64,000 nt of DNA. Source: a virus. The stretch lies in the IMG/VR virus record IMGVR_UViG_3300042898_002514; one strand, given 5' to 3'. Each line of letters opens with the position of its first letter. Positions within the stretch are counted from its first letter, which is position 1. Below are positions 23,730 through 35,666 of this stretch, one piece after another. The notes beneath the pieces are model-generated. The model was given only the letters and a program-made list of their open reading frames with translations, was not told the DNA's origin and did not search any database. The translations under genes and the position numbers were made by a program.

Positions 23730-24168
23730 AAAAGTTGGGCGACGGTATGTGCCTGTTGCAGAATATGACAACGACTTTTTGGACAGCTTTCCAAAAGGTA
23801 ACCACCTGGTTATGTCTTATCCCGGAGGCAGTAGTCGTAGGTTTAATATTGATCCTAACTATGCGGCTATGATTGCCGCGGGTAGAGTTGCTGAAGATGC
23901 CATATGTCGAGCAATTAGCAAAGCCAGCGAAATGCGACCTCAACGAACTCCGATTACTCTAGGGCAGAAAAAAGCCTGGGAAAAGTTAGCCAAAGAGTTT
24001 GGTGATGAACTATGCTCACTAACTTACGGCAGTTCTAGAGATCATGCAGAAGCTGGCATTAAAGCCATGCAGGATGAAGCAGACAAATTGATGAAACACG
24101 ACGGTGTTCGTAAAGCCTACGAGCAGTTTCAGCTAATATGCGAGTTGACCAAGGAACGCCATGGATAG
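23710..24168 (+). CDS. hypothetical phage protein
   Basis: MKKIYYEKVGRRYVPV start. Confidence 0.75.
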   Translation: MKKIYYEKVGRRYVPVAEYDNDFLDSFPKGNHLVMSYPGGSSRRFNIDPNYAAMIAAGRVAEDAICRAISKASEMRPQRTPITLGQKKAWEKLAKEFGDELCSLTYGSSRDHAEAGIKAMQDEADKLMKHDGVRKAYEQFQLICELTKERHG

Positions 24169-24349
24169 AAGCGAAATGCAGACTAGAATGGCAGAATTGA
24201 TGTTGCCAATTGAAAAACAAATACTCATGTGTGATGATCGGCAGGATCTACTCATGATGGCCTGTGCTATGTTACAGCACGTAAACACCATTTTTACACA
24301 GGAATTAGGCGAAGCGGGCAAAAATCAGATGTTTCGAGATATGCTTTAG
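24161..24349 (+). CDS. hypothetical protein
   Basis: AAGGA SD, 62 aa. Confidence 0.65.
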   Translation: MDRSEMQTRMAELMLPIEKQILMCDDRQDLLMMACAMLQHVNTIFTQELGEAGKNQMFRDML

Positions 24350-24375
24350 AATAAACTTATGCTATAATTATCACA

Positions 24376-24969
24376 GTGATAAGTAATAGTAATCCCAAGG
24401 AGCAGATCTTGAAGAAAATTGATGAGTTCAATGCTAGTGATAGAATTGGCGTAAAATTATTAGACAATTCCATCCACTATCTCGGTGGTGAAATCACTGC
24501 TGAAAATGTGGAGGAATGCATCAAATGGATTGTTTATGAAAATCTCGAAGTCAAGGAAAAAATACTCACCCTTTATGTAAATTCCACAGGGGGAGATCTA
24601 TATCAAGCATTTGCTCTTATAGACATCATGCAGAGCAGTAAACACAGTGTGAGAACTATTGGTGTTGGCAGTATAATGAGTGCTGCCTTTTTGATTTTTG
24701 CTGCGGGCGCCAAAGGAGAACGATACCTAGCTGCCAACACAGGAATTATGTGTCATCAGTTTTCTGGGAGTGCCGCTGATATTAAGTTTCACGACCTCAA
24801 GGCTGAAATGAAGGAAAACGAATTCTTGAATCAAAAGATGATCAATATACTGCAACAGGCCACGGATCTAACACCATCAAAGATAAAATCAAAATTGTTA
24901 CCGGCTTCAGACGTTTATATGACTGTTCAAGAAGCACTAGATTTTGGTATCGCAGATCAATTACTATAG
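24376..24969 (+). CDS. clpP: ClpP-family protease
   Basis: LYVNSTGG, catalytic Ser (IMSAA), His (MCHQ), Asp (SDVYM), EALDFGIAD. Confidence 0.88.
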   Translation: MISNSNPKEQILKKIDEFNASDRIGVKLLDNSIHYLGGEITAENVEECIKWIVYENLEVKEKILTLYVNSTGGDLYQAFALIDIMQSSKHSVRTIGVGSIMSAAFLIFAAGAKGERYLAANTGIMCHQFSGSAADIKFHDLKAEMKENEFLNQKMINILQQATDLTPSKIKSKLLPASDVYMTVQEALDFGIADQLL

Positions 24970-24976
24970 GACACAC

Positions 24977-25231
24977 ATGGAAGTCATCAGCATCAACAGC
25001 AAACGCAAAGAAGATATTCAACAGCAAGAACAAAAGAAAGCCATGTTAGCAGTGATTGAATTCATCAAAGCGGAAATAGAAAGCGATAGCATAAAAGAAT
25101 TTGTGGCCTGCTCAATCGACGACGGCGGAGAAGTCCAGATACACGTGGCAGCAATGGATCTCCCTGGAAGTGTGGGTCTGTTTGAAATCGGCAAACACAT
25201 TTTGATCACGGGTGAAACAACATTTGAGTGA
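24977..25231 (+). CDS. hypothetical protein
   Basis: AGGA SD, MEVISINSKR. Confidence 0.7.
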   Translation: MEVISINSKRKEDIQQQEQKKAMLAVIEFIKAEIESDSIKEFVACSIDDGGEVQIHVAAMDLPGSVGLFEIGKHILITGETTFE

Positions 25232-25269
25232 ATGTGGTAAAAAAGCCACATAATCAGATCATATTTTTG

Positions 25270-25384
25270 TTGACATATAAATAAAAAGACATTACAATAC
25301 ATACAGTTGGTTAGGAAGGCGTCAAAATTTATTTTGCCAAAACGGCAAATAGAGGTTGACAAGAGAACTAAATAACTGTATAAT
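25270..25384 (+). promoter_or_regulatory. tandem sigma70 promoters driving the tRNA array
   Basis: TTGACA-17-TACAAT (25270-25298) and TTGACA-17-TATAAT (25356-25384). Confidence 0.85.
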
Positions 25385-25432
25385 TAAAACATAGACAGCA
25401 AGGTGCTGTTTATAAAAGGAAAAAGAAAGCAA

Positions 25433-25576
25433 ATGAAATCATTTAACAGACATCAGTTTAATACGATGCCCAAACAGGTAGGTGTAATAGCCTGCTCTTG
25501 GTTATCGATTAATGGTGGAAGTTTATCATATGATCGTACACCAGAGATTTCAAGGGTCCGGGAGGACGTAGTGTAA
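25433..25576 (+). CDS. putative attenuator leader peptide (47 aa)
   Basis: MKSFNRHQFNTMPKQVGVIACSWLSINGGSLSYDRTPEISRVREDVV between promoter and terminator. Confidence 0.55.
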   Translation: MKSFNRHQFNTMPKQVGVIACSWLSINGGSLSYDRTPEISRVREDVV

Positions 25577-25602
25577 AGTAAAACATACACCGCAAACTTC
25601 AA

Positions 25603-25640
25603 GGACCCTGGGAATTAAAACTCCTGGGGTTTTTTGTTTT
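25603..25640 (+). terminator. intrinsic terminator with competing antiterminator
   Basis: ACCCTGGGA/TCCTGGGGT stem plus U tract; GGACCCT also complementary to AGGGTCC at 25553. Confidence 0.75.
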
Positions 25641-25648
25641 AAGGAACA

Positions 25649-25801
25649 ATGACAGAGAAAAAGATTAAAGAAGCAGAATGGACAGTGACGCACACTCTTA
25701 CTAAGGATCAGTTTTTGAAACTGATCCATAATAAGGTGAAACGTGTGGCACAGTATCATCGAGCTATAAACAAGCAGGAAAGTAGGCCAAATGCCCGCTA
25801 G
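25649..25801 (+). CDS. hypothetical 50-aa protein
   Basis: AAGGA SD, MTEKKIKEAEW... Confidence 0.55.
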   Translation: MTEKKIKEAEWTVTHTLTKDQFLKLIHNKVKRVAQYHRAINKQESRPNAR

Positions 25802-25907
25802 TACTGCAACGTGGTAGGGGAAACGAGGTCCTCGCAACACACGATAAACAGTTGTAAACGGGCGGCCTAGGCGATGAAGTCTCTTTTGTGAGATAAAAAA
25901 CCCTAGC

Positions 25908-25963
25908 GTATTAAAGCATTCTTTACGAACAGTCAGACTAAGTAGTTTAGAATGTTTTAATAC
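25908..25963 (+). repeat. hairpin cassette 1 (variant stem)
   Basis: GTATTAAAGCATTCT / AGAATGTTTTAATAC, 26-nt loop. Confidence 0.6.
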
Positions 25964-26020
25964 ACACATTCTTCATTCAGCTCTTGACGCTGTCTAAAAG
26001 CATAGCGGAGAGTGTGTTTA
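25961..26020 (+). repeat. hairpin cassette 2
   Basis: ACACATTCT / AGAGTGTGT. Confidence 0.6.
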
Positions 26021-26028
26021 CAATTTAT

Positions 26029-26117
26029 GGAAGTGTGCGCTGAATTGGTTGAAGGCAACGGACTGTAAATCCGCCACATAAGAAACATTGTAGGTTCGAA
26101 TCCTACCACTTCCACCA
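26029..26117 (+). tRNA. tRNA-Tyr(GTA)
   Basis: Cloverleaf, long variable region, encoded CCA. Confidence 0.92.
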
Positions 26118-26123
26118 AGTTTT

Positions 26124-26199
26124 GCCTCGTTCATATAACGGTCTATTATATCCGCCTGTCTAGCGGAATACAGGGGTTCGACTCCCCTACGAGGCGCCA
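26124..26199 (+). tRNA. tRNA-Asp(GTC)
   Basis: TCCGC-CTGTCTA-GCGGA, CCA. Confidence 0.92.
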
Positions 26200-26205
26200 G
26201 TTTAT

Positions 26206-26281
26206 TCCCCGATAGCACAGAGGTAGTTGCGCTTCGCTGTTAACGAAGATGTCGTACGTTCGATCCGTACTCGGGGAGCCA
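26206..26281 (+). tRNA. tRNA-Asn(GTT)
   Basis: CTTCG-CTGTTAA-CGAAG, CCA. Confidence 0.92.
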
Positions 26282-26287
26282 GACAAT

Positions 26288-26361
26288 GTATCTCTAATGT
26301 AATGGCAGCATCACAGTCTCCAAAACTGTTCGTCGGGGTTCGAGTCCCTGGAGGTACGCCA
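26288..26361 (+). tRNA. tRNA-Trp(CCA)
   Basis: ACAGT-CTCCAAA-ACTGT. Confidence 0.92.
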
Positions 26362-26369
26362 AACAATTT

Positions 26370-26444
26370 GCACGATTCGTCTATCGGTTAGGACGCTGCC
26401 CTTTCAAGGCGGAAAGACGAGTTCGATTCTCGTATCGTGTACCA
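26370..26444 (+). tRNA. tRNA-Glu(TTC)
   Basis: CTGCC-CTTTCAA-GGCGG. Confidence 0.92.
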
Positions 26445-26451
26445 ATATACC

Positions 26452-26525
26452 GCGGGATTAGTTTAATGGTCAAACGAAACCTTGCCAAGGTTTAGTCAGG
26501 AGTTCGATTCTCCTATCCCGCTCCA
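26452..26525 (+). tRNA. tRNA-Gly(GCC)
   Basis: AAACC-TTGCCAA-GGTTT, U73. Confidence 0.92.
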
Positions 26526-26528
26526 TAT

Positions 26529-26620
26529 GCCAGCGAGACTTGACAGTCAGAGAGTCCTTATAAGACTTTTAGCGCCAGATTAGCGTTCTTGAGAGGGTTT
26601 GATTCCCTCCGCTGGTACCA
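26529..26620 (+). tRNA. atypical tRNA with TAT anticodon (Ile codon AUA)
   Basis: 7-bp acceptor, 4-nt D loop, extended anticodon stem, long variable arm, CCA. Confidence 0.65.
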
Positions 26621-26626
26621 CACCAT

Positions 26627-26704
26627 ATAGGGATGGCAGAGAGGCCCAATGCAACAGTCTGCAAAACTGTAAACCCGTGGGTTCGAATCCCACTCCCTAT
26701 TCCA
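26627..26704 (+). tRNA. tRNA-Cys(GCA)
   Basis: ACAGT-CTGCAAA-ACTGT, U73. Confidence 0.9.
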
Positions 26705-26708
26705 ATAT

Positions 26709-26785
26709 ACCCCTGTACGCTAATTGGTAGTGCGGGTAGACTTAAAATCTGCTGGATGGCGGTTCGAATCTGCCCAGGGGTACCA
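26709..26785 (+). tRNA. tRNA-Leu(TAA), short variable loop
   Basis: GTAGA-CTTAAAA-TCTGC. Confidence 0.85.
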
Positions 26786-26853
26786 ATCAACCAGTCTTGG
26801 ACACGCAGACTTTAAAGCGATGTGGGAGTAGGTGGAAGCCCTGCACCTAATAT

Positions 26854-26943
26854 GGAAGTATGGCTGAGCATGGCTTAAGGCAGCAGTCTTGAAAACTGAA
26901 GGCTCGAAAGGGTCCGTGGGTTCGAATCCTACTACTTCCGCCA
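26854..26943 (+). tRNA. tRNA-Ser(TGA)
   Basis: Long variable arm, G73. Confidence 0.93.
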
Positions 26944-26947
26944 ATTT

Positions 26948-27021
26948 TCCCGGATAATTAAATGGTATAATAATCGGCTGATAACCGGTCTTCGCAAGTT
27001 CGATTCTTGCTCTGGGAACCA
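26948..27021 (+). tRNA. tRNA-Ile(GAT)
   Basis: ATCGG-CTGATAA-CCGGT. Confidence 0.9.
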
Positions 27022-27042
27022 ATTTTTAAAATGGAGAATGAC

Positions 27043-27063
27043 ATGAAACGAGGTAAACTCTAG
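27043..27063 (+). CDS. mini-ORF MKRGKL (putative regulatory peptide)
   Basis: GGAG SD 6 nt upstream of ATG; stop overlaps a hairpin. Confidence 0.4.
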   Translation: MKRGKL

Positions 27064-27124
27064 TGTCATCCTAGACCCCCGTATGGTCCTGGATGGCACG
27101 TAAAAGAAAATATTTACGATCCAT

Positions 27125-27199
27125 CCACGCTAAACTTTAGTGGCGAAGTACCCGGCTCTTAACCGGACTAACTGAGTTCGATTCTCAGAGCGTGGACCA
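27125..27199 (+). tRNA. tRNA-Lys(CTT)
   Basis: CCGG-CTCTTAA-CCGG; A at position 8. Confidence 0.85.
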
Positions 27200-27202
27200 T
27201 AT

Positions 27203-27278
27203 GGGAGTATAGTGAAATGGTTATCACAGCAGACTTTTAATCTGCCAGTTCCGGGTTCGAGTCCCGGTGCTCCTACCA
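27203..27278 (+). tRNA. tRNA-Lys(TTT)
   Basis: GCAGA-CTTTTAA-TCTGC. Confidence 0.93.
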
Positions 27279-27359
27279 TAGACAAACACATTAGAAGCCT
27301 TCGTGACTGTGGGCGAGTAGGTCTCTAAGTCGTTTCCGACTAGTGTGTTTTTCTATGGT
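27275..27359 (+). repeat. hairpin cassette 3
   Basis: ACCATAGACAAACACATTAG / CTAGTGTGTTTTTCTATGGT, 45-nt loop. Confidence 0.8.
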
Positions 27360-27464
27360 TAGTATCAGAAGATGTGATCGAAACAGGTGTACTAGTCATA
27401 CACAATGTCGTGACCGGAGGATGAGAAGTCGCAAGAGTAGGCCTGACCGCTAGAGGGTAGCGAC

Positions 27465-27552
27465 ACCATATAAAAACACATTAGGCCTGATCATAGATCA
27501 TCGCGGGTATAGTGCCTTCCGAGCCGCGGACTTGAGTGTGTTTTTATATGGT
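27465..27552 (+). repeat. hairpin cassette 4
   Basis: ACCATATAAAAACACATT / AGTGTGTTTTTATATGGT, 52-nt loop. Confidence 0.8.
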
Positions 27553-27624
27553 AACGTAGCATAATGGTCGTGCACCTCCTTCATACGGAGCAAGGTGCTG
27601 GTTCGAATCCAGCCGTTACCACCA
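27550..27624 (+). tRNA. tRNA-Met/Ile2(CAT), elongator type
   Basis: CTCC-TTCATAC-GGAG, paired 1-72. Confidence 0.85.
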
Positions 27625-27627
27625 AGT

Positions 27628-27824
27628 TTTGTAAGTGTCAGCAAGAGAAAGACTCGCTAGGAAGATTCTTCGAAGGTCAACCTAGTGCAAAAGTAGGGCG
27701 GGTTCGAGTCCCGTAAAAGCAGCGGAGCACCTATGTCAAGTATTCCAAGTGATGTACCACCTCCCGTCCGGACCAGTGCAATCGGGTGAATGGTAGAGAT
27801 TAAAGTGGCTCTACTACTTACAAA
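27628..27824 (+). ncRNA. unclassified structured RNA with internal T-loop
   Basis: Closing stem TTTGTAAGT/ACTTACAAA; GGGTTCGAGTCCC internal; no convincing ORF. Confidence 0.5.
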
Positions 27825-27833
27825 TTCAATTAT

Positions 27834-27909
27834 CTCTCTAAAGTGTTATCTGGTTGCATCCGCGGTTTGGGGCCGTGTGGTCTAGGTTCGAATCCTAGTA
27901 GGGAGACCA
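27834..27909 (+). tRNA. tRNA-Pro(TGG)
   Basis: CGCGG-TTTGGGG-CCGTG. Confidence 0.88.
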
Positions 27910-27917
27910 GTTTCTGT

Positions 27918-27991
27918 TGGGGGTTAGTTAAATGGTATAACCGCGGATTTTGATTCCGCTATTAAAGGTTCGATTCCTTTACCCTCTGCCA
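27918..27991 (+). tRNA. tRNA-Gln(TTG)
   Basis: GCGGA-TTTTGAT-TCCGC. Confidence 0.9.
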
Positions 27992-27998
27992 AATTTAT

Positions 27999-28075
27999 CG
28001 GACCGTAATTCAATTGGATAGAAAGCAAGTCTTCGAAACTTGAGGTTGGGAGTTCGAATCTCTCCGGTCCGGCCA
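27999..28075 (+). tRNA. tRNA-Arg(TCG)
   Basis: CAAGT-CTTCGAA-ACTTG. Confidence 0.9.
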
Positions 28076-28091
28076 TATAAAGGAAAATGCT

Positions 28092-28259
28092 ATGAAAACA
28101 ATTACATTTAAAAATAGATTCAACAATGAGCGAGTGGTCTGTAATGATCCCAAGGCTGTACAAGTAATTGACGGCATTGAGTACCTGTTGGTCAGCAAGA
28201 CCATTCAAGATAGAAAATTTCTAATGCGTAAAGATGCATTGGAGAAGATTAAAACATAG
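28092..28259 (+). CDS. hypothetical 55-aa protein
   Basis: AAGGA SD, MKTITFKNRFNNERVVC... Confidence 0.65.
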   Translation: MKTITFKNRFNNERVVCNDPKAVQVIDGIEYLLVSKTIQDRKFLMRKDALEKIKT

Positions 28260-28265
28260 ATCAAT

Positions 28266-28339
28266 GTTGTTCCTAGTGTAGTGGCTGCACAACTGTCTGT
28301 GAAACAGTTAGAGAGGGTTCGATTCCCCGGTTCAACCCA
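28266..28339 (+). tRNA. tRNA-His(GTG), degenerate acceptor/T stems
   Basis: ACTGT-CTGTGAA-ACAGT, G-1; two U-U mismatches and a shortened T stem. Confidence 0.65.
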
Positions 28340-28355
28340 ACAAAGTAGAAATATC

Positions 28356-28760
28356 ATGGAACAAGTAAAAATATTAAACACATTAAAGGGATCTGTTCGT
28401 AAGTTCGAAGAATTACTAGGACGATCATTGTACAAGGCAGAAGCAGACGACTCAGTATTGACACTGTATCTGTCCAAGACAAACTATGTAAGATTCCAAC
28501 ATCACCAAGATTGTTGCGAAAGTGTTTACATAGAAGACATATGTGGTGACCTCGATGACCTTGTGGGAGCACCACTAGTTGAAGCTGAAGAAGTTTCTGA
28601 CTATGAAGGTGAAGCTACAGGAGACGAGTCTTACACATGGACATTTTACAAGTTTGCTACACGCAAGGGATTTGTAACTGTTCGGTGGTATGGTTCCAGC
28701 AATGGATACTATTCCGAAAGTGTCAGTGTTGATGTAGTTGATACTACTATAAAGGATTAA
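28356..28760 (+). CDS. conserved hypothetical phage protein
   Basis: HHQDCCESVYIEDICGDL, WYGSSNGYYSE motifs. Confidence 0.8.
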   Translation: MEQVKILNTLKGSVRKFEELLGRSLYKAEADDSVLTLYLSKTNYVRFQHHQDCCESVYIEDICGDLDDLVGAPLVEAEEVSDYEGEATGDESYTWTFYKFATRKGFVTVRWYGSSNGYYSESVSVDVVDTTIKD

Positions 28761-28761
28761 T

Positions 28762-28837
28762 GCAACTTTAGCTGATGTGGTCATAGCGGCGGTTTGAAGA
28801 ACCGTTGAACCAGGTTCGATTCCTGGAGGTTGCACCA
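28762..28837 (+). tRNA. tRNA-Phe(GAA)
   Basis: GCGGT-TTGAAGA-ACCGT. Confidence 0.9.
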
Positions 28838-28875
28838 AGACAAATGCGAGAATGGTGGAATTTAATAAATATTAT

Positions 28876-29439
28876 ATGAACATATTATTCCTTCCAATTG
28901 ATATTGAAATTCCAAAGATTGATACATCAAAAATACAGTCTACAATTAACGTCATCAACAACCTAACCTACATAAAAACTGCAGAGTATCAACAGTATTG
29001 GGATACTTCTAGAATTACTGAAACAGTTGATGATACTTTAAAATCTGTACTAGATCAGTTGCCTATAAGCAAAGTAACAAATGTATATTATAAAGAGCAA
29101 AGACAAGCTGTGTCACCTCATTACGATGTATATCCAAATATGAAATTTGAAGAAGGAGAATACACTAATATTTTAGATAACGAACCTGCAGGGTATCGTC
29201 TAGTCCTAGAAGGGTCCACTGATGTACTTTATGTTAAAAGTGGAGGCACGTTTAAGTTAGCAGAATTGCCATCTGTGCCTTGTTGTTATCTTTTAAATAC
29301 CACAGCAGGGCTACACATGCTCAAGGATGATCCGGGCAGAAAGATTATCTATATTAGAGGATTTATTGATACAGCAAGGCATCAGACGCTGATAGAAAAA
29401 AGTCTCAAACGTTATAAAAATTTAGCAATTATTGCATAA
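28876..29439 (+). CDS. putative 2OG-Fe(II)/cupin-fold oxygenase
   Basis: PHYD and distal H; paralog of island genes at 38-42 kb. Confidence 0.65.
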   Translation: MNILFLPIDIEIPKIDTSKIQSTINVINNLTYIKTAEYQQYWDTSRITETVDDTLKSVLDQLPISKVTNVYYKEQRQAVSPHYDVYPNMKFEEGEYTNILDNEPAGYRLVLEGSTDVLYVKSGGTFKLAELPSVPCCYLLNTTAGLHMLKDDPGRKIIYIRGFIDTARHQTLIEKSLKRYKNLAIIA

Positions 29440-29443
29440 CATT

Positions 29444-29518
29444 GCCGCCTTTGTATAATAGAGAATACAGCTCTCTTCCAAAGTGCGAATAGGAGTTCGA
29501 TTCCTAGAGGTTGCACCA
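29444..29518 (+). pseudogene. chimeric/degenerate tRNA (3' end copied from tRNA-Phe)
   Basis: Acceptor halves do not pair well; 29495-29519 matches 28814-28838 at 24/25. Confidence 0.65.
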
Positions 29519-29563
29519 ACTAAGTTGGACTCTTAGAACTCTACATAATTAATAAATACCAAC

Positions 29564-30127
29564 ATGCAAAACTTTTATAAACACTTTCCAGAAATAGATA
29601 ATGTATATTGGACTAACTATTTTTTGAAAGAATTCATACCAAAATATAAAATTTTTGAACAATTGTCTAGTCCTTTATATATGATGTATTTTAAAAAAGA
29701 TTTTTATAAAGATTTAGAAATATTAAAACTTAGTTCGTTGCTAGTTAGTAAACTAAAATTTCCACCGATTGAATATTTTTCAATATTTAAACACACGTAT
29801 TCCCAGGCCATTCATGCTGATGGTAAATCAACATTGAGATATGCAAGCTTCAACTTACCTCTCGTGGGGTTTGAAGGGACAAGGATGTGTTTTTATAATA
29901 CAAAATCAAATGTTATTCCTAAAGTAGCAGATGCTTATTATTTTAAAGAAGATGATGTATGTCTTGCTACAGAACTAGAAGGCAAGAATGAATGGACATT
30001 AGTAAACAGTTCAATCCCACATAATATTGTGAATGTAGATTTTAATAATCCTAGAATAACAGTATGCATTAGATTTAATGGTAATCCAAAACTTGAGGAT
30101 CTAATAACAAATGAAATTCAATCCTAA
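29564..30127 (+). CDS. putative 2OG-Fe(II)/cupin-fold oxygenase
   Basis: IHAD...LVNSSIPHNI...RITVCIRF. Confidence 0.65.
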   Translation: MQNFYKHFPEIDNVYWTNYFLKEFIPKYKIFEQLSSPLYMMYFKKDFYKDLEILKLSSLLVSKLKFPPIEYFSIFKHTYSQAIHADGKSTLRYASFNLPLVGFEGTRMCFYNTKSNVIPKVADAYYFKEDDVCLATELEGKNEWTLVNSSIPHNIVNVDFNNPRITVCIRFNGNPKLEDLITNEIQS

Positions 30128-30159
30128 GGACGGCACCAAAAAATATTTTAAAATAACTG

Positions 30160-30188
30160 TTGACAAGATAACGTAATGACTATATAAT
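30160..30188 (+). promoter_or_regulatory. sigma70 promoter
   Basis: TTGACA-17-TATAAT. Confidence 0.85.
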
Positions 30189-30241
30189 AGTTACATACTA
30201 AGCAATTAGTAATGTTCATTAAAAATTTAAAGTAAGATTTT

Positions 30242-30325
30242 GCGCAAGTGGTGGAATGGTATACACGATGGTCTTAGAAGCCATTGCCGAAAGGATTGAG
30301 AGTTCGAGTCTCTCCTTGCGCACCA
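30242..30325 (+). tRNA. tRNA-Leu(TAG)
   Basis: Class II cloverleaf, CCA. Confidence 0.93.
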
Positions 30326-30408
30326 TATTGAAACATATTAAAGATAGGGTTGTAACGGTTCATTGAACTTTAGTACATACCGTGGTAGTTAGTGTGTTTC
30401 AATATGGT
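30322..30408 (+). repeat. hairpin cassette 5
   Basis: ACCATATTGAAACATATTAA / TTAGTGTGTTTCAATATGGT, 47-nt loop. Confidence 0.8.
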
Positions 30409-30418
30409 AAAGAATTTT

Positions 30419-30493
30419 GCCTGGTTAGCTCAGGGGTAGAGCGTCTCGTTTACACCGAGAGGGTCCGCGGTTCGAAACCGTGACCAGGTACCA
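30419..30493 (+). tRNA. tRNA-Val(TAC)
   Basis: TCTCG-TTTACAC-CGAGA. Confidence 0.93.
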
Positions 30494-30512
30494 CTAGTAG
30501 AAAGAAGACTGT

Positions 30513-30653
30513 ATGATACCCAAAGAAATTATAGACCAGGCATACCGAAATATTCCTAACAAAGTGGGGTTTGCTGTCAATTGGAATTTTACGCCGACTT
30601 GGCGTGGTGTGAGATATTACTGGTATAAATTACTACGTAAAGCAACAAGATAA
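30513..30653 (+). CDS. hypothetical 46-aa protein
   Basis: MIPKEIIDQAYRNIP... fills the gap between tRNAs. Confidence 0.5.
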   Translation: MIPKEIIDQAYRNIPNKVGFAVNWNFTPTWRGVRYYWYKLLRKATR

Positions 30654-30654
30654 T

Positions 30655-30742
30655 GGAGCATTGGCCGACCGGTTAAGGCAACAGATTGCTAATCTGTCAC
30701 TGCGCAAGTGGTGAGTAGGTTCGATTCCTACATGCTCCGCCA
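30655..30742 (+). tRNA. tRNA-Ser(GCT)
   Basis: Long variable arm, G73. Confidence 0.93.
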
Positions 30743-30946
30743 GAACGTTCCGAGTGTCTTCGGATAGTGTGACCCGCACGATGAGAAGTAGTGTGACAAC
30801 TACGGGTGGTAGTCTTTAAACCCAAAGGCCGCTAGCAATGCGAGAACGGTCCCTGTCGGGAAGCGGGTGGAAGGTACGAGTGAGAGGTATGATAGCGTCA
30901 TATCTTTCTGTACTATAATTACCGCCGGGGGACGTCAGAGCAACCA
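30743..30946 (+). ncRNA. unclassified GC-rich structured RNA ending in ACCA
   Basis: Multiple hairpins (TCCGA/TCGGA, GTAGT/ACTAC, GAGAGGTATGA/TCATATCTTTC). Confidence 0.5.
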
Positions 30947-30967
30947 GATTTTAATAAAGGAAACATA

Positions 30968-31180
30968 ATGAAACCAGGTCCAAATTACAAGATGTCATCT
31001 TTGACTAAAGCAAGTCTAGCAATGAGTAGAGTTCTAGATCCTCACAAGCGAGGTGAGTGGAAACGTGCCATGATTGATGCAGAGCTATGTGCCGCTGTTC
31101 AACCCAAGCGTGAAACACGCAAACCGGGCAATGGTAATTTTACCACCCATGCATCTGGGACCGTATCTTCAGGAAGTTGA
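30968..31180 (+). CDS. hypothetical protein
   Basis: AAGGA SD, 70 aa. Confidence 0.65.
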   Translation: MKPGPNYKMSSLTKASLAMSRVLDPHKRGEWKRAMIDAELCAAVQPKRETRKPGNGNFTTHASGTVSSGS

Positions 31181-31181
31181 T

Positions 31182-31472
31182 ATGAGCAAGGGATCTAAAG
31201 CAAGACCCTTTAGTGTCAGCCAGCGTGAGTTTGACAATAGATGGGATACAATTTTTCGCAAGAGTCCTCAAGAAGTGCAAGATGCAGTTCGAGAAGATGA
31301 AGAATTTAACAGGATTGATACTATGCAAGTACGAGTAAAAGAAGATGAAAGTAAAATCGGATCTTGCGGTTGCGGTCGTTCGCCAACCGGCAAGTGCATC
31401 GGTTGGCACGGACTAACCGAAGAAGCATTTAAAGAAAAACTTCAAGAGTATAAACTCAACGAAGGTAAGTGA
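31182..31472 (+). CDS. CDGSH-like iron-sulfur/zinc finger protein
   Basis: CGCGRSPTGKCIGWH. Confidence 0.65.
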   Translation: MSKGSKARPFSVSQREFDNRWDTIFRKSPQEVQDAVREDEEFNRIDTMQVRVKEDESKIGSCGCGRSPTGKCIGWHGLTEEAFKEKLQEYKLNEGK

Positions 31473-31478
31473 AATATT

Positions 31479-31554
31479 GGGGGATTGGTATACTTGGCTA
31501 ACACACCTGGTTTGCAACCAGGAGCAAACGGTTCGAATCCGTTATCCTCCACCA
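31479..31554 (+). tRNA. tRNA-Ala(TGC)
   Basis: G3-U70, CCTGG-TTTGCAA-CCAGG. Confidence 0.92.
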
Positions 31555-31560
31555 AGCATT

Positions 31561-31634
31561 GCCCTTATAGTTAAATGGTATAACGGCGGTTTTGTAATCC
31601 GCAGTTTGCAGTTCGATTCTGTGTAGGGGCACCA
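31561..31634 (+). tRNA. tRNA-Thr(TGT)
   Basis: Cloverleaf, CCA. Confidence 0.9.
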
Positions 31635-31650
31635 ATATAGTCAAAAGATG

Positions 31651-31679
31651 TTGACAAACATCTTGTATAGTGCTATAAT
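31651..31679 (+). promoter_or_regulatory. sigma70 promoter
   Basis: TTGACA-17-TATAAT. Confidence 0.85.
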
Positions 31680-31703
31680 AGTTTTGTTGTGTAGCAATAC
31701 ACA

Positions 31704-31927
31704 ACCGGCAAAGTGAAAGGTAGATGAGAGAAGACACTACTGTTTGGCTTCATGCCAAATGGAACTTAACTCCAAATACTCTGAAAAAGTATCCGTGTCA
31801 TTGTGTTCCGGCCCCAAAAGATATTTGTTTATTGATTACCGGAAATATAGTGACCCCTGTGGATTGTATATTGAGCATTGTTATTTGCACATTGTCCAGT
31901 CTTTTACTTGACCTTTCACTGAACCGT
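31704..31927 (+). ncRNA. structured RNA/leader upstream of rpoZ
   Basis: Perfect 10-bp long-range stem AGTGAAAGGT (31712) / ACCTTTCACT (31911) plus inner stems. Confidence 0.5.
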
Positions 31928-31946
31928 TTTTTAACCTGAGGAAAAT

Positions 31947-32192
31947 ATGACATCAAGATTAACATCAGAATTAGCAGTAGAACAGATAGGCAATAGGTTT
32001 GACTTGGTACTAGTTGCCAGTCAGCGAGCCCGAGAGTTAAAAAACGGTTCAATGCCCAAAGTCGCTGAACCAGGCAAAACATTTATTTCTACAGCACTTC
32101 GAGAGATTGAAGAAGGCAAGTATACCTATAAAGATTATATTAATAAATTACCAAAAAAACGTAAAGGACAACGAGATGAATATTTCACTTAG
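31947..32192 (+). CDS. rpoZ: RNA polymerase omega subunit
   Basis: IGNRFDLVLVASQRAREL...ALREIEEG. Confidence 0.9.
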   Translation: MTSRLTSELAVEQIGNRFDLVLVASQRARELKNGSMPKVAEPGKTFISTALREIEEGKYTYKDYINKLPKKRKGQRDEYFT

Positions 32193-32748
32193 AAAAGCCA
32201 GCGCCCTACAAAACAGCATCAATGATGCTATCAAGGGCATTAAAATCACAACATCGATTGATCTCAATGAATTTCAAGATGTAGCAGTAGAACTAAAGAA
32301 TGCCAACGATACGCTGTTTAACAACGACAGTCGGAGACAACGCCTGCTGTTGGCCTTGTATAACATTCGTGGTCTTGTGGGCAGTGCCAACGCACAAAGC
32401 GGCATTGATTTGAAATTGGCCACTGCTGCCTTTGTGGACAAACGTGTTGCTCAACTTGAAGGTCTTGTAGTAGATCCTGTAACTAATCTTGCCGTGATCA
32501 ACGGTAAGTTGGACAAGATTCGCAACGACAAGAGCGAAAGTAGCCGTAGCCGTATCTATGGATTTAGTGACACAGTGTCTACTAATGTCATCGGTCACGA
32601 ACAGCTAGATGTGATTAGTACAGAGATTAAAAATCTCAAGAAACAAAAGCAGAAACTCAACGATGAAGTACTTGAGTTAAATATCAAAACAGAGATTCCA
32701 CTCAGTGAAGAAGTAGTGGCAACATTGCAATCAGAAGGTTTAGTTTAA
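32176..32748 (+). CDS. hypothetical coiled-coil phage protein
   Basis: AAGGA SD, MNISLRKA. Confidence 0.8.
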   Translation: MNISLRKASALQNSINDAIKGIKITTSIDLNEFQDVAVELKNANDTLFNNDSRRQRLLLALYNIRGLVGSANAQSGIDLKLATAAFVDKRVAQLEGLVVDPVTNLAVINGKLDKIRNDKSESSRSRIYGFSDTVSTNVIGHEQLDVISTEIKNLKKQKQKLNDEVLELNIKTEIPLSEEVVATLQSEGLV

Positions 32749-32751
32749 AAA

Positions 32752-32952
32752 CCCGTGATCCCGTACACGTAATAAACGGGGGTGGGGCAGTCACCATAGA
32801 GAGCGCCGGGTATTCAATGCTATGACCATTAGTTCTCTGAGTTAAGGGATACTAGAACGCATTGGGTGAGGTTTAGCACCTTTCCAGAAGAATAAATGTT
32901 ATGGACAGAGTAACCGCTCAGTTCGGGGCTTATGTGGTGTAAGTAGCCGGAC
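32752..32952 (+). ncRNA. unclassified structured RNA region
   Basis: H-type pseudoknot plus hairpins; no convincing ORF. Confidence 0.4.
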
Positions 32953-33065
32953 ACTTTATTAGAACAAATTAGAATCTTGTAGAAATACTTGATTAGGTTT
33001 GGCTTCCCCGGAGCTCTTTAGCATAGCTATAACTTTTAATATGCCTTAGTTTGTTTTAATAAAGT
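32953..33065 (+). repeat. hairpin cassette 6
   Basis: ACTTTATTAGAACAAATTAG / TTAGTTTGTTTTAATAAAGT, 73-nt loop. Confidence 0.7.
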
Positions 33066-33068
33066 TAT

Positions 33069-33144
33069 CGCAGGATGGAGAAGGTGGTATCTCGGAAGTC
33101 TCATAAGCTTCAGATCGTCGGTTCGACTCCGACTCCTGCAACCA
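33069..33144 (+). tRNA. initiator-type tRNA-fMet(CAT)
   Basis: C1-A72 mismatch; anticodon stem lacks the three G-C pairs. Confidence 0.85.
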
Positions 33145-33149
33145 ATATT

Positions 33150-33299
33150 ATGAAATTATTTGAAGCAACAATCAGAGTCAACGGCAAAGAATTCAAGGAT
33201 CGTGTTGGTGCAGAAACAGCACAGGAAGCAATGAAGCTTCTGCAACAGAGATACGGTCCTAGAGCAGTGCCCTATGTTCCTCATATGATTCCCAATTAA
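33150..33299 (+). CDS. hypothetical 49-aa protein
   Basis: MKLFEATIRVNG... Confidence 0.65.
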   Translation: MKLFEATIRVNGKEFKDRVGAETAQEAMKLLQQRYGPRAVPYVPHMIPN

Positions 33300-33301
33300 T
33301 T

Positions 33302-33378
33302 CGGAGTGTGGCGCAGTCTGGTAGCGCACCTGGTTTGGGACCAGGGGGTCCAAGGTTCGAATCCTTGTACTCCGACCA
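33302..33378 (+). tRNA. tRNA-Pro(TGG), second copy
   Basis: CCTGG-TTTGGGA-CCAGG. Confidence 0.93.
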
Positions 33379-33391
33379 ATTTTTTAAATTT

Positions 33392-33988
33392 ATGAAAATA
33401 ACAAAATGTAATCTATTTCCAATTTCACTTTTTGAAGTTTCAGAGTTTTTGACTGTAACTCAGTGCAATGATATTGTCACTTACATACGAGGATTACCTA
33501 AAAAACCTTATCCGGCAATGACTGGGAAATCGTTTACTACATTTAATATTTCTAATAGATTATTAGAAGACATTCAACAACATGTAAAATCATGTGCTAA
33601 TATGTTATCATCATTATCTGATATTGTGTTAGAATATGAAAAAACATCTGGTTACAACTGTGGTAAACTAGGTAATTCTTGGGCTAGTTTTCAATATAAA
33701 GATAGTGCATTATTAACCCATACTCATTATTCTAGTTTAATATCGGGCGTATTGTATTTGCAAGTAGATAATAATAGTAGTAAAATTATTTTTAATAATG
33801 TTAATCCTTTTTTAGAATATCTACCTAAAAAACATCTTACAACATATACATACAATAAAATGAGTTTCGAACCCACTGTTGGGAAATTAATAGTATTTCC
33901 CAGCTGGTTACCACATGGTTCAGACACTGAGTTGAATAAGTCGGACGAACGAATAATTATTAGTTTCAATACTGAATTAATAATTTAG
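33392..33988 (+). CDS. 2OG-Fe(II) oxygenase (TIGR02466-like)
   Basis: HTH..S.ISGVLY, FPSWLPH, RIIISFN. Confidence 0.85.
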   Translation: MKITKCNLFPISLFEVSEFLTVTQCNDIVTYIRGLPKKPYPAMTGKSFTTFNISNRLLEDIQQHVKSCANMLSSLSDIVLEYEKTSGYNCGKLGNSWASFQYKDSALLTHTHYSSLISGVLYLQVDNNSSKIIFNNVNPFLEYLPKKHLTTYTYNKMSFEPTVGKLIVFPSWLPHGSDTELNKSDERIIISFNTELII

Positions 33989-34023
33989 TCAGTTTTCTAC
34001 CAAATTTTTTATAAAAGGCAACA

Positions 34024-34209
34024 ATGACAAAAGCAGAAAATCAAGCGGCAACAGAAGCAGCGATGGCTGAGTTTCTAGCCAAAGGTGGTGTAGTTCAACA
34101 ACTAAAACCAAATCAAAGTGGTAGGGTCGAAGGAGAATCATATTCAATGTGGTCTAAGAAAAAGCCTTCAACTTCACCTTTGGCCAATCCTCCAGAAGAC
34201 GACGAATAA
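34024..34209 (+). CDS. hypothetical protein
   Basis: EFLAKGGVVQ motif. Confidence 0.7.
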   Translation: MTKAENQAATEAAMAEFLAKGGVVQQLKPNQSGRVEGESYSMWSKKKPSTSPLANPPEDDE

Positions 34210-34223
34210 ATAGAAATAACAAT

Positions 34224-34297
34224 GCGGGGTTCGTATAGTGGTAATACCTCAGATTTCCAATCTGATGCGGACAGTTCGATTCTGTTACCCCGCTCCA
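34224..34297 (+). tRNA. tRNA-Gly(TCC)
   Basis: TCAGA-TTTCCAA-TCTGA. Confidence 0.93.
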
Positions 34298-34301
34298 AAT
34301 T

Positions 34302-34880
34302 ATGCACACAGTTATTGACAGAAACGATACCTTTAGAAAATTTGACTTTAGTTCTACGATCGGTAAAGAAGATAATACAACTGCCATAGGCATTATAAAG
34401 AATATTGTCGCCGATGGGAACTATTTTAAAAATAGTCCAAAGTATCAAACCCAAGAAAACATATTTGCAAGACCCGAAGCTGTATGGTTAAAGTACCGTA
34501 TGAGTTTCTTGTTCAGTGTGTTTATGTATCTTGGGCGAGAAGTAAAAGTCAATAACATGATGGCCTGGGCATTTATGACCAATCTAGAAGGTGTAGAAGA
34601 TCGTGAAAAGCTATGGCACGATCATTGGCATCCTACAAATCCAAATGCCAAGATGCTGAGTGGTATATTTTATCTGCATATTCCCGAGGATGTAAAAGAC
34701 CGTGATTATTGCGGAACTGAAATGGCGCCAAATGGACCCCAAGGCGAAGGAAAGTTCTTTGTTCGCCCTACTGATTACAGTTGGTTGTTGTATCCCAGTA
34801 ATCAATGGCATCGACCGGGCGTGGTCCAAAGCAATGATTATAGATTTATCCTAGCAGTGGACGTAGAATATCTACCGTAA
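34302..34880 (+). CDS. 2OG-Fe(II) oxygenase-like protein
   Basis: WHDH, SGIFYL, YPS..WHRP, RFILA. Confidence 0.75.
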   Translation: MHTVIDRNDTFRKFDFSSTIGKEDNTTAIGIIKNIVADGNYFKNSPKYQTQENIFARPEAVWLKYRMSFLFSVFMYLGREVKVNNMMAWAFMTNLEGVEDREKLWHDHWHPTNPNAKMLSGIFYLHIPEDVKDRDYCGTEMAPNGPQGEGKFFVRPTDYSWLLYPSNQWHRPGVVQSNDYRFILAVDVEYLP

Positions 34881-34942
34881 TAAAACTGTAACAGTCTTTT
34901 TGTCTAAAAGACATAAGTACGCATATAAACTGAAAGAAAAAA

Positions 34943-35377
34943 ATGTTATCCTTTATCACCAATCTCACTGACCCACTCCTAGATTACATAAAGGATGATC
35001 CTGTTCGCCCTGAGTTGCCTAAGGAGTTTAGGGTAGGAAAGAACAAGTTTGTGAGTGCTCTAGTTGATGACATTCCTCGAGCTATGGTATGTGTGAGTTT
35101 ACACGATTTCATACCGGAAGATGTCGATGATTTGATCAAAGATACGGAAGTGCCAACCGCAGCAATTTTCTACACCATTTGGAGTTACGCCCCGGGGGCT
35201 GGTGTAGAATTGCTGAGAGCAACTGTAGCAGAAATACAAAAGCAATTTCCCAGCATAGAACGCTTTGTCACTCTGAGTCCAAAGACCGATATGGCCAAGA
35301 AGTTTCATACCAAAAATGGCGCCGGAGTTTTTAGAGAAAATTTAGACACCGTAAACTACGAGTACGATGTAAAATAA
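34943..35377 (+). CDS. GNAT-fold-like hypothetical protein
   Basis: AIFYTIWSY..GAG...FVTLSP. Confidence 0.65.
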   Translation: MLSFITNLTDPLLDYIKDDPVRPELPKEFRVGKNKFVSALVDDIPRAMVCVSLHDFIPEDVDDLIKDTEVPTAAIFYTIWSYAPGAGVELLRATVAEIQKQFPSIERFVTLSPKTDMAKKFHTKNGAGVFRENLDTVNYEYDVK

Positions 35378-35434
35378 CAACTCTCCCTGACAGGCGGAGT
35401 ATAATGAGCCAAATAGTCTGTCATCAACAACACG

Positions 35435-35478
35435 GCCCTGCCCTCTAAGACATAGTACTTAGGGCAGGGTTTTTCTTT
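35435..35478 (+). terminator. intrinsic terminator
   Basis: CCCTGCCCT...AGGGCAGGG plus U tract. Confidence 0.7.
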
Positions 35479-35480
35479 AT

Positions 35481-35555: not shown

Positions 35556-35556
35556 C

Positions 35557-35630: not shown

Positions 35631-35631
35631 C

Positions 35632-35660: not shown

Positions 35661-35666
35661 AGTCGT

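What the first reader, a model, noticed from the sequence alone, without database searches (positions are those of the whole stretch)
25908..33065. Six hairpin cassettes with a conserved ACAYATT/AGTGTGT stem and unique loops interleaved with tRNAs
Seen: cassettes at 25908-25963, 25961-26020, 27275-27359, 27465-27552, 30322-30408 and 32953-33065. Each is a 9-20 bp near-perfect stem. The inner core is (A)AACAYATT ... AGTGTGTTT in cassettes 2-5 and a variant in 1 and 6, with a recurrent U-G wobble in 2-6. The outer stems differ but covary, and the loops (26-73 nt) are mutually unrelated. In cassettes 3 and 5 the stem begins with the ACCA end of the upstream tRNA and pairs with it. In cassette 4 the stem includes the first GGT of the downstream tRNA. 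Inference: a constant handle with variable cargo resembles a small-RNA or guide array, for example RNase III-released antisense RNAs, decoys or guides for a phage protein, co-expressed with tRNAs. Alternatively it is a dedicated processing signal coupling tRNA end maturation to cassette excision. It is not CRISPR (inverted not direct repeats; no cas in window).
Basis: partly seen in the sequence, partly recalled or inferred. Interest (0 to 1): 0.85.

Follow-up and report, generated by a model that had tools for sequence, protein, structure and literature searches.

The report
Stem-clamped small RNAs between phage tRNAs
The six hairpins are real, and four of them belong to a widespread, apparently undescribed family of phage RNA modules: one nearly invariant 20-base-pair stem that begins on the CCA end of a tRNA and encloses a different small folded RNA in each copy, most likely cut out of the tRNA transcript as a stable small RNA of unknown job.

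Summary
Observation confirmed. All six hairpins fold. C3, C4 and C5 score 58-62 bits with a covariance model of the family and C6 scores 38 bits. C2 keeps only the inner core. C1 is a second stem class.

The same stem occurs in at least 119 uncultured phage contigs. It is almost always in tRNA arrays and on the tRNA strand. It often starts exactly on a tRNA's ACCA and ends on the GGU that opens the next tRNA. The outer stem covaries. The inner stem is nearly invariant, with a U.G wobble in 95% of copies and a non-Watson-Crick pair at position 9.

The loops are conserved small folded RNAs that are swapped between phages. One tRNA-Lys/tRNA-Met junction holds a hairpin in 17 of 17 loci, with 10 different loops. 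In two contigs the hairpin is the excised intervening segment of a two-piece tmRNA gene.

Best reading: an RNA processing and clamp module that releases stem-closed small RNAs from tRNA transcripts. The cutting enzyme (RNase III, or RNase P plus RNase E and exonucleases) and the job of the loops are unproven. I found no support for guides or antisense RNAs.

There is no Rfam family and no paper in the library searched. This scan had already noted the family on other DNA.

The parts
27275..27359 (+). C3: canonical clamp-stem hairpin with a 45-nt cargo. The 5' arm starts on the ACCA of tRNA-Lys(UUU). Position 9 is a C.U mismatch, with a U.G wobble at position 17.
   Evidence: R1 scores 58.4 bits. 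Cargo orthologues occur in L023, L063 and L071 at 93-98% identity.
27465..27552 (+). C4: canonical hairpin with a 48-nt cargo of three small hairpins. The 5' arm starts on the ACCA of the 105-nt non-tRNA module. The last GGU is the first three bases of tRNA-Met.
   Evidence: R1 scores 61.4 bits. Orthologues occur in L009, L105, L003, L061 and L103, with two compensatory pairs in the cargo.
30322..30408 (+). C5: canonical hairpin with a 47-nt cargo. It starts on the ACCA of tRNA-Leu(UAG) and lies 10 nt upstream of tRNA-Val.
   Evidence: R1 scores 62.1 bits. Orthologues occur in L070 and L090. The same Leu-Val junction has no hairpin in L009, L096 and L030.
32953..33065 (+). C6: divergent member with a 73-nt cargo. 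C15-G is changed to A-U on both sides, the U.G wobble is kept, and CUU replaces CCA. It ends 3 nt before tRNA-Met(33069).
   Evidence: R1 scores 38.4 bits, E 3e-7. No copy of these arms was found in viral contigs.
25961..26020 (+). C2: inner core only (ACACAUU / AGUGUGU with the wobble) and a 32-nt cargo. It lies at the head of the array, 8 nt before tRNA-Tyr.
   Evidence: R1 scores 14.7 bits, E 0.49, over model positions 12-70. The L103 counterpart has the same core with only a 6-nt loop.
25908..25963 (+). C1: hairpin of a second stem class (AAAGCAUUCU / AGAAUGUUUU) with a 26-nt loop.
   Evidence: Not significant with R1. The same class follows tRNAs in L039, L045, L075 and L095. The loop and stem are conserved in L103 with G.U-preserving changes.
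27203..27278 (+). tRNA-Lys(UUU). Its 3' ACCA forms the first four pairs of C3.
27357..27468 (+). A 112-nt non-tRNA module (GGU...ACCA) between C3 and C4. Its ACCA end opens C4. It is conserved in L105.
   Evidence: Its single-sequence fold is not better than shuffles.
27550..27624 (+). tRNA-Met(CAU). Its first three bases, GGU, close C4.
   Evidence: The Lys(UUU)-Met junction holds a hairpin in 17 of 17 loci.
30242..30325 (+). tRNA-Leu(UAG). Its ACCA opens C5.
25356..25384 (+). Promoter with a 12/12 match to the sigma-70 consensus, upstream of the first tRNA block (C1-C4). Like sites at 30160-30188 (before tRNA-Leu and C5) and 31651-31679 (before C6).
   Evidence: These are consensus matches only.

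Best explanation
The hairpins are RNA-level modules of the phage's polycistronic tRNA transcripts. Each is a 19-20 bp stem with consensus ACCAUAUAA-AAACACAUUAG ... CUAGUGUGUUU-CUAUAUGGU. The first four pairs use the discriminator-CCA end of the RNA upstream (a tRNA, a tmRNA acceptor piece, or another CCA-ended RNA). The last bases abut or overlap the 5' end of the next tRNA. The stem encloses a 25-100 nt structured 'cargo' RNA.

Inferred mechanism. The module is excised by the host's RNA-processing machinery.
- RNase P makes the downstream cut at the 5' end of the next tRNA.
- The upstream tRNA's CCA end is freed in one of two ways. RNase III may cut the two-turn stem near its central non-Watson-Crick pair, leaving short A/U-rich tails that exonucleases and RNase P trim. 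Or RNase E may cut in the frayed UAUA base of the stem.
- The inner 11 bp then stay on the cargo as a clamp that buries both ends. The result is a discrete, nuclease-resistant small RNA.

Shown here: the anatomy, the family, selection on pairing in the sense RNA, the boundary coincidences, cargo conservation and cargo swapping. Inferred: excision, the enzymes involved, product stability, and any function of the cargo.
For: (1) Family. The covariance model finds 329 matches, both strands counted, in 100 loci.

(2) Context.
- 1420 tRNAs lie in 99 of the 120 sequences scanned (119 loci plus the window).
- 142 elements are on the strand of the nearest tRNA and 8 are not.
- 70 start exactly on the tRNA's ACCA.
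- 31 end with the GGU that begins the next tRNA.

(3) Pairing is selected.
- 91.6% of cells are paired, against 82.8% in shuffles.
- 11 pairs show double changes.
- The covariation score is 0.255 against 0.03-0.07 for slid registers.

(4) Selection acts on the sense RNA.
- The A/C-rich 5' arm varies by transitions that give G.U pairs. The G/U-rich 3' arm is nearly invariant.
- Sense-strand scores exceed antisense scores by 15-20 bits.

(5) The hairpin is the intervening segment between ...CUGGUCC-ACCA and GGGCCAG of permuted tmRNA genes in L008 and L031. That segment is removed by tRNA processing enzymes (PMC11915505).

(6) Geometry. Unrelated stem sequences that start on ACCA are also 20-22 bp long.

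(7) Cargo.
- There are about 80-89 cargo families.
- Orthologues are conserved, with compensatory pairs.
- The Lys(UUU)-Met junction holds a hairpin in 17 of 17 loci, with 10 different cargo families.

(8) Strong sigma-70-type promoters lie upstream on the same strand.
Against: - There are no expression or end-mapping data.
- Neither RNase III cleavage nor any other cleavage has been shown.
- RNase III has little sequence specificity. A pure processing stalk therefore does not explain why the inner 10 bp, the U.G wobble (95%) and the position-9 mismatch (65%) are held so constant.
- A CCA end buried in a 20-bp helix is an awkward substrate for the usual 3' trimming enzymes.
- A nearly cargo-less copy exists (L103), so cargo is not always needed.
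Confidence: 0.6

Rival explanations
1. The handle is a sequence-specific protein-binding site. On this reading the modules are the RNA halves of an unknown ribonucleoprotein, organised like Y RNA with Ro60: the conserved inner stem is bound by a phage or host protein, and the cargo recruits or decoys other factors such as host defence proteins. This does not exclude excision from the tRNA transcript.
For: - The inner stem is near-invariant, with a U.G wobble kept in 95% of copies where C-G would be more stable. A non-Watson-Crick pair sits at position 9 in 65%.
- One junction carries 10 different cargos in different phages, the kind of turnover expected in an arms race.
- Some cargos carry T-arm-like hairpins (GGUUCGAAUCC), as tRNA mimics do.
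Against: - No TROVE/Ro60 match in five parent contigs, two of them complete.
- No Y_RNA or YrlA match in Rfam.
- The published Ro-binding motif GNCGAAN0-1G / GGUCCGA (PMC4201824) is absent from the handle.
- The commonest array-embedded ORF (PF04308, RNase H-like) is absent from the window and from both complete genomes.
- The model has no match in Felix O1 or T4.
Confidence: 0.17
2. The hairpins are structural spacers only. They insulate the folding of neighbouring tRNAs or set the order of tRNA processing, as the intervening segment of a two-piece tmRNA does. On this reading the loops are tolerated filler with no function of their own.
For: - The hairpin is the tmRNA intervening segment in L008 and L031.
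- A near-empty copy exists in L103.
- The Lys-Met junction always keeps a hairpin, whatever the cargo.
Against: - Cargo orthologues stay 87-98% identical across contigs and show compensatory changes.
- The same cargo recurs in different tRNA contexts.
- 529 of the inter-tRNA gaps are under 10 nt, so a spacer is not generally needed.
Confidence: 0.12
3. This is a DNA-level element. The 20-bp inverted repeats are either portable homology for recombinational cassette exchange (like the PeSL cassettes of T4-type phages, from my own knowledge) or the ends of a miniature mobile element that targets the TATA spacer between tRNA genes.
For: - Presence/absence polymorphism at the Leu-Val junction.
- Different cargos at one slot, and the same cargo in different contexts.
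- The usual inter-tRNA spacer (CCA-UAUA) is palindromic, so a target duplication would look like extra stem.
- Neighbouring genes in the loci are of T4 type (RegA, DsbA, clamp loader, RNase H), and such phages recombine freely.
Against: - The elements are strongly biased to the tRNA strand, 142 against 8.
- The substitutions are those that keep G.U pairs in the sense RNA only.
- The outer stem covaries, including the pairs with ACCA.
- No transposase is associated.
- Exchange by recombination may still be how the cassettes spread, without being their function.
Confidence: 0.07
4. This is a guide or antisense RNA array. Each loop would base-pair with a target in the phage, its host or a competitor.
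For: The handle is constant and the inserts vary. The inserts turn over quickly between phages.
Against: - No complementarity above chance to anything in the window: longest match 11 nt, E 0.27 or worse.
- The loops are internally base-paired.
- No effector gene was found.
- Host and co-infecting genomes could not be searched, so this is not excluded.
Confidence: 0.04

Closest known systems
Intervening segment (IVS) of circularly permuted, two-piece tmRNA genes (Keiler et al. 2000; Rfam RF04321, RF01849, RF01850)
   Same: Both lie exactly between a 3' CCA end and the 5' G of an acceptor strand, and both are removed by tRNA processing enzymes. In L008 and L031 the hairpin literally is the IVS.
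   Different: The Rfam consensus IVS, as seen in the alignment, is a short A/U-rich linker without this conserved stem or a cargo. In this window the module sits between separate tRNAs. No tmRNA was found here.
RNase III processing stalks (rRNA leader-trailer helices; phage T7 early-mRNA sites R1.1 etc.)
   Same: Both have about two turns of dsRNA with a central non-canonical pair. In both, the sequence is conserved among paralogous sites of one phage, and the helix separates functional RNAs of a polycistronic transcript.
   Different: This stem is a local hairpin that encloses the product rather than flanking it from afar. It is anchored on a tRNA CCA end. Its sequence is conserved across many phages. 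Cleavage by RNase III is untested. This comparison rests on my own knowledge of T7 and rrn sites.
Phage T4 small stable RNAs rnaC and rnaD (species 1 and 2) in the T4 tRNA cluster
   Same: Both are small non-tRNA RNAs co-transcribed with phage tRNAs and of unknown function. T4 rnaC has a T-arm-like hairpin, as some cargos do.
   Different: T4 has no clamp stem, and the model finds nothing in the T4 genome.
Y RNAs (YrlA/YrlB) with Ro60/Rsr, including phage copies (Chen et al. 2014, PMC4201824)
   Same: Both have a long closing stem plus a variable, sometimes tRNA-like, module. Both occur in phages near tRNAs.
   Different: There is no TROVE gene, no Ro-binding motif and no Rfam match.
tRNA-linked pre-miRNA hairpins of murine gammaherpesvirus 68 (TMERs)
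   Same: In both, a hairpin immediately follows a tRNA-like structure and would be released by tRNA 3'-end processing. This comparison rests on my own knowledge.
   Different: TMERs are eukaryotic, transcribed by Pol III and cut by tRNase Z. Their hairpins feed the miRNA pathway, and there is no conserved stem sequence.

Membership tests
   C3, C4 and C5 score 58-62 bits and C6 scores 38 bits. C2 has the inner core only (E 0.49). C1 does not match and belongs to a second stem class.
   C3 and C5 start on tRNA ACCA ends, and C4 on the ACCA of a non-tRNA module. Across the family, 70 start on ACCA, and 142 against 8 are on the tRNA strand. C6 has ACUU instead.
RNase III processing site | About 20 bp or more of mostly uninterrupted dsRNA | tested here: met
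   The helix spans 18-22 bp in most copies.
RNase III processing site | Cleavage by RNase III with a 2-nt 3' overhang | not testable with these tools
   No read data. No phage RNase III gene in five parent contigs, so a host enzyme would be needed.
Y RNA / Ro60 ribonucleoprotein | A TROVE-domain (Ro60/Rsr) gene in the same genome | tested here: not met
   PF05731 is absent from five parent contigs, two of them 100% complete. None of the window ORFs scanned with Pfam showed it. Very divergent Ro60-like folds would be missed.
Y RNA / Ro60 ribonucleoprotein | The Ro-binding motif (GNCGAAN0-1G / GGUCCGA) in the stem, or an Rfam Y_RNA/YrlA match | tested here: not met
   The motif, taken from PMC4201824, is absent from the handle. 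There is no Rfam match at E up to 1.
CRISPR array | Direct repeats with spacers, and cas genes | tested here: not met
   The repeats are inverted, not direct. No cas domain appeared in the ORFs scanned.
Permuted tmRNA intervening segment | Lies between the acceptor-piece CCA and the coding-piece 5' end of a tmRNA | tested here: not met
   Met in L008 and L031. Not met in this window, where ARAGORN and Rfam find no tmRNA.
T4 rnaC/rnaD | Sequence or structure homology to the T4 stable RNAs | tested here: not met
   No R1 match in T4. The T4 RNAs lack a closing 20-bp stem.
MITE-like mobile element | Terminal inverted repeats with a target-site duplication, and no strand preference | tested here: inconclusive
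   Inverted repeats are present. A duplication cannot be told from stem because the TATA spacer is palindromic. The strand bias (142 against 8) and the G.U-only substitutions argue for selection on RNA.

The most novel reading that the evidence does not exclude
The invariant inner stem, with its fixed U.G wobble and position-9 mismatch, is the docking site of an unidentified protein. On this reading the modules are a new class of phage ribonucleoprotein: a standard handle presents rapidly exchanged cargo RNAs (tRNA-elbow mimics and others) as decoys or sponges against host tRNA-targeting or RNA-sensing defences.
Probability: 0.15. Interest if true: 0.85.

Novelty: new variant of a known kind. 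Interest (0 to 1): 0.6.

Why it matters
Phage tRNA arrays are usually read as tRNAs plus spacers. Here many of the spacers are a standardised RNA cassette system: one stem and dozens of interchangeable small structured RNAs. It is found in at least 119 uncultured, probably freshwater phage contigs. It is essentially absent from 185,579 cellular species genomes.

If the cargos are functional, this is a large untapped set of phage small RNAs. They have a simple, testable maturation signal, and the signal could serve as a portable way to express stable RNAs from tRNA operons. If they are only processing stalks, they still show how phages punctuate long non-coding transcripts, and how a two-piece tmRNA gene can borrow the same device.

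Tried and rejected
- A near-identity search of the region against cultured phages found nothing. A short distant search with C4 found nothing relevant.
- tblastn with array genes found only remote T4-superfamily or jumbo relatives, or none. No cultured phage could be tied to the element.
- A full-text search for the core sequence returned only unrelated primer hits. Searches on tRNA arrays, GOLLD and two-piece tmRNA returned no description of the stem.
- Rfam at a permissive threshold found only tRNAs in 24000-37000.
No whole genome is held for this window.
- Candidate partner proteins rejected as obligatory: RNase III, TROVE, and the PF04308 RNase H-like ORF embedded in 22 arrays.
- The Felix O1 'Ro60 handle' lead from earlier scan notes: model R1 finds nothing in Felix O1. 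That is a different RNA family, at least by sequence.
- Arms of the C6 type were not found in viral contigs.
- An R1 hit inside the ORF at 34457-34523 (19.6 bits, E 0.025, partial) is treated as probable chance.
- The hairpins are not intrinsic terminators. The terminator scan picks up only a small cargo hairpin of C3.

Full report
**What the window is**

The window is part of a large uncultured phage.
- It carries 29 tRNA genes on the + strand between 26029 and 35630.
- It also carries phage genes: a head maturation protease-like ORF and phrog families.
- It has many auxiliary genes: Hsp70, CsgG and curlin, a CHASE2-cyclase, a bilin reductase, KdsA/KdsB-like genes, desaturases, and an Mtd-like protein.
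- No cultured phage is close. Protein matches are to remote T4-superfamily and jumbo phages at about 30% identity.
- No whole genome is held for it.

**The observation**

C3 (27275-27359), C4 (27465-27552) and C5 (30322-30408) share a 20-nt arm pair, ACCAUAnnnAAACAYAUUAr / yUAGUGUGUUUnnnUAUGGU.
- C3 and C5 begin on the ACCA of tRNA-Lys(UUU) and tRNA-Leu(UAG).
- C4 ends with the GGU that opens tRNA-Met.
- C4's own ACCA belongs to a 112-nt non-tRNA module, 27357-27468.

**The hairpins belong to a large family**

Nearly every hit has the same flanks, which the pattern did not specify: (tRNA)ACCAUAUAA-AAACACAUUAG ... CUAGUGUGUUU-CUAUAUGGU.

Context of the elements:
- The 120 sequences scanned (119 loci plus the window) hold 1420 tRNAs, in 99 of them.
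- 142 elements are on the strand of the nearest tRNA and 8 are not.
- 70 start exactly on a tRNA's ACCA.
- 31 end with the first three bases of the next tRNA.

I aligned 41 members with different loops (A1) and built covariance model R1. Its scores over the window with filters off:
- C5 62.1 bits, C4 61.4 bits, C3 58.4 bits.
- C6 38.4 bits (E 3e-7).
- C2 14.7 bits (E 0.49, inner core only).
- C1 not significant.
- Sense-strand scores exceed antisense scores by 15-20 bits.

C1 is a second stem class (AAAGCAUUCU / AGAAUGCUU). That class also follows tRNAs in other contigs. C1 is conserved, together with C2, at the head of the array in L103.

R1 finds 329 matches, both strands counted, in 100 loci, and 1-4 copies per parent contig, two of which are complete genomes.

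A stricter pattern run over 185,579 cellular species genomes found only four hits. All are on small MAG contigs labelled Planktophila, Polynucleobacter or Gammaproteobacteria, probably mis-binned phage DNA.

**Anatomy of the stem**

- On A1, 91.6% of cells are paired against 82.8% in shuffles. Eleven pairs show changes on both sides. Slid registers fall to 31-53% paired.
- Positions 6-8 covary freely (AU, UA, GC, CG).
- Position 9 is non-Watson-Crick in about 65% of copies, mostly A.C, then C.A and U.U.
- Positions 10-18 are almost invariant. Position 17 is U.G in 95% of the model-derived set.
- Regular pairing stops at position 19-20.
- Variation is asymmetric. The A/C-rich 5' arm changes by transitions that create G.U pairs, while the G/U-rich 3' arm hardly changes. 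This is expected if pairing is selected in the sense RNA. It is not expected in the antisense RNA, where the same changes would give A.C mismatches.
- Stems of unrelated sequence that start on the ACCA of tRNA-Glu and other tRNAs are also 20-22 bp long. The two-turn, CCA-anchored geometry is therefore itself conserved.

**The loops are cargo, not noise**

- The 147 distinct pattern-derived elements carry about 80-89 loop families.
- The window's C1, C3, C4 and C5 loops have orthologues at 87-98% identity in other contigs.
- The C4 cargo folds into three small hairpins, with two compensatory pairs among five sequences.
- The same cargo sits in different tRNA contexts. C3's cargo follows Lys(UUU) in the window and Arg(ACG) in L063. 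C4's cargo follows Glu(UUC) in L003.
- The Lys(UUU)-Met(CAU) junction holds a hairpin in 17 of 17 loci. In the 13 single-hairpin junctions the fit from ACCA to UGGU is exact, but ten different cargo families occupy the junction across the 17 loci.
- The Leu(UAG)-Val(UAC) junction is 7-22 nt in three contigs and 93 nt, with C5, in the window.
- L103 has a C2-type core with only a 6-nt loop.
- Some cargos contain T-arm-like hairpins.

**The tmRNA clue**

Rfam at gathering thresholds on twelve loci found GOLLD RNAs in four arrays. It also found permuted (two-piece) tmRNA genes in L008 and L031.

The printed alignment shows the L008 hairpin lying exactly between the acceptor piece (...CUGGUCC-ACCA) and the coding piece (GGGCCAG...). 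In other words, it is the intervening segment. That segment is removed by tRNA processing enzymes (PMC11915505).

The hairpin also directly follows GOLLD in L001, L031 and L109.

So the module is a general connector between the 3' end of one structured RNA and the 5' end of the next.

**Mechanism (inferred)**

Perfect sigma-70-type promoters lie upstream on the same strand at 25356, 30160 and 31651. The hairpins would therefore be made as part of the tRNA precursors.

RNase P must cut at the 5' end of the downstream tRNA. The upstream CCA end must also be freed, and that end is buried in a 20-bp helix.

The simplest route is a cut by host RNase III near the centre of the two-turn stem, where the non-canonical pair sits. 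That would leave 5-9 nt A/U-rich tails that fall apart and are trimmed. The inner 11 bp would stay as a clamp on the cargo.

The alternative is an RNase E cut in the frayed UAUA base of the stem, plus RNase P. That would leave a 16-bp clamp.

Either route yields a stem-closed small RNA. None of this is shown. The phage contigs encode no RNase III.

**What it is not**

- Not CRISPR. The repeats are inverted and no cas genes were seen.
- Not a Y RNA by the tests available: no TROVE gene, no Ro motif, no Rfam match.
- Not the Felix O1 handle family noted earlier in this scan, and not the T4 stable RNAs. R1 finds nothing in either genome.
- The guide or antisense idea finds no target in the window. 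The longest complementarity is 11 nt, which is the chance level. Hosts could not be searched.
- A DNA-level role in cassette exchange is likely as a means of spread, but it does not explain the RNA-specific substitution pattern.

**What remains unexplained**

It is not clear why the inner stem sequence, the U.G wobble and the position-9 mismatch are so constant. That constancy keeps a protein-binding reading alive.

**Prior notes**

This scan had already described the same family on other DNA. I treated those notes as leads. I re-derived the family, the CCA anchoring and the tmRNA link independently here.

I found no Rfam family and no paper describing the element in the library searched.

Noticed in passing
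window 30743-30950: An ORF-free stretch of about 200 nt after tRNA-Ser(GCU). Orthologues in L008, L009, L060, L076 and L089 share blocks such as GAACGUUCC, GAUGAGAAGU, ACGGGUGGUA and GCAAUGCGAGAACGG. There is no Rfam match at E up to 1. Probably another undescribed structured RNA of these arrays.
   Followed up: partly
window 27357-27468: A 112-nt non-tRNA module (GGU...ACCA) between C3 and C4, conserved in L105. It shares the GUGACC..GAUGAGAAGU motif with the RNA at 30743-30950. Its single-sequence fold is no better than shuffles.
   Followed up: partly
window 27625-27833: A 209-nt ORF-free gap between tRNA-Met and tRNA-Pro that contains a T-arm-like GCGGGUUCGAGUCCCGU. Neither ARAGORN nor Rfam calls anything there.
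   Followed up: no
window 25802-25907: A leader upstream of C1 that is conserved in L103 (8880-8990). A small hairpin there is changed on both sides (GUCUC..GAGAU in the window, UCCC..GGGA in L103).
   Followed up: partly
window 31947-32192 and 35899-36117: The phage encodes an RNA polymerase omega-like protein (PF01192, E 5e-15), which is present in 20 of the related loci. It also encodes a 72-aa protein that looks like translation initiation factor IF-1 by eye. Only a PHROG family of unknown function matched the latter.
   Followed up: partly
L046:593-1216 and 21 other loci: An ORF of about 160 aa from the RNase H-like family PF04308 (YkuK/DUF458) sits inside tRNA arrays, 4-70 nt from a tRNA in 21 of the 22 loci (1197 nt in L065). 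It is absent from this window and from two complete hairpin-bearing genomes.
   Followed up: yes
L001:503-965, L031:2633-3098, L023:2432-2895, L109:10884-11346: GOLLD RNAs lie inside the tRNA arrays of related contigs. In L001, L031 and L109 a clamp-stem hairpin follows them directly. No GOLLD was found in this window's array.
   Followed up: partly
window 29444-29515: A decayed tRNA-like sequence (Rfam tRNA 23.7 bits, below the threshold). Its 3' end resembles that of tRNA-Phe at 28762-28837.
   Followed up: no
window 34457-34523: A partial R1 match (19.6 bits, E 0.025) inside a 2OG-Fe(II) oxygenase-like ORF. Probably chance.
   Followed up: partly
window 49665-51074: An ORF with an N-terminal Mtd (major tropism determinant) domain. 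This hints at a diversity-generating retroelement target gene. No reverse transcriptase was looked for.
   Followed up: no
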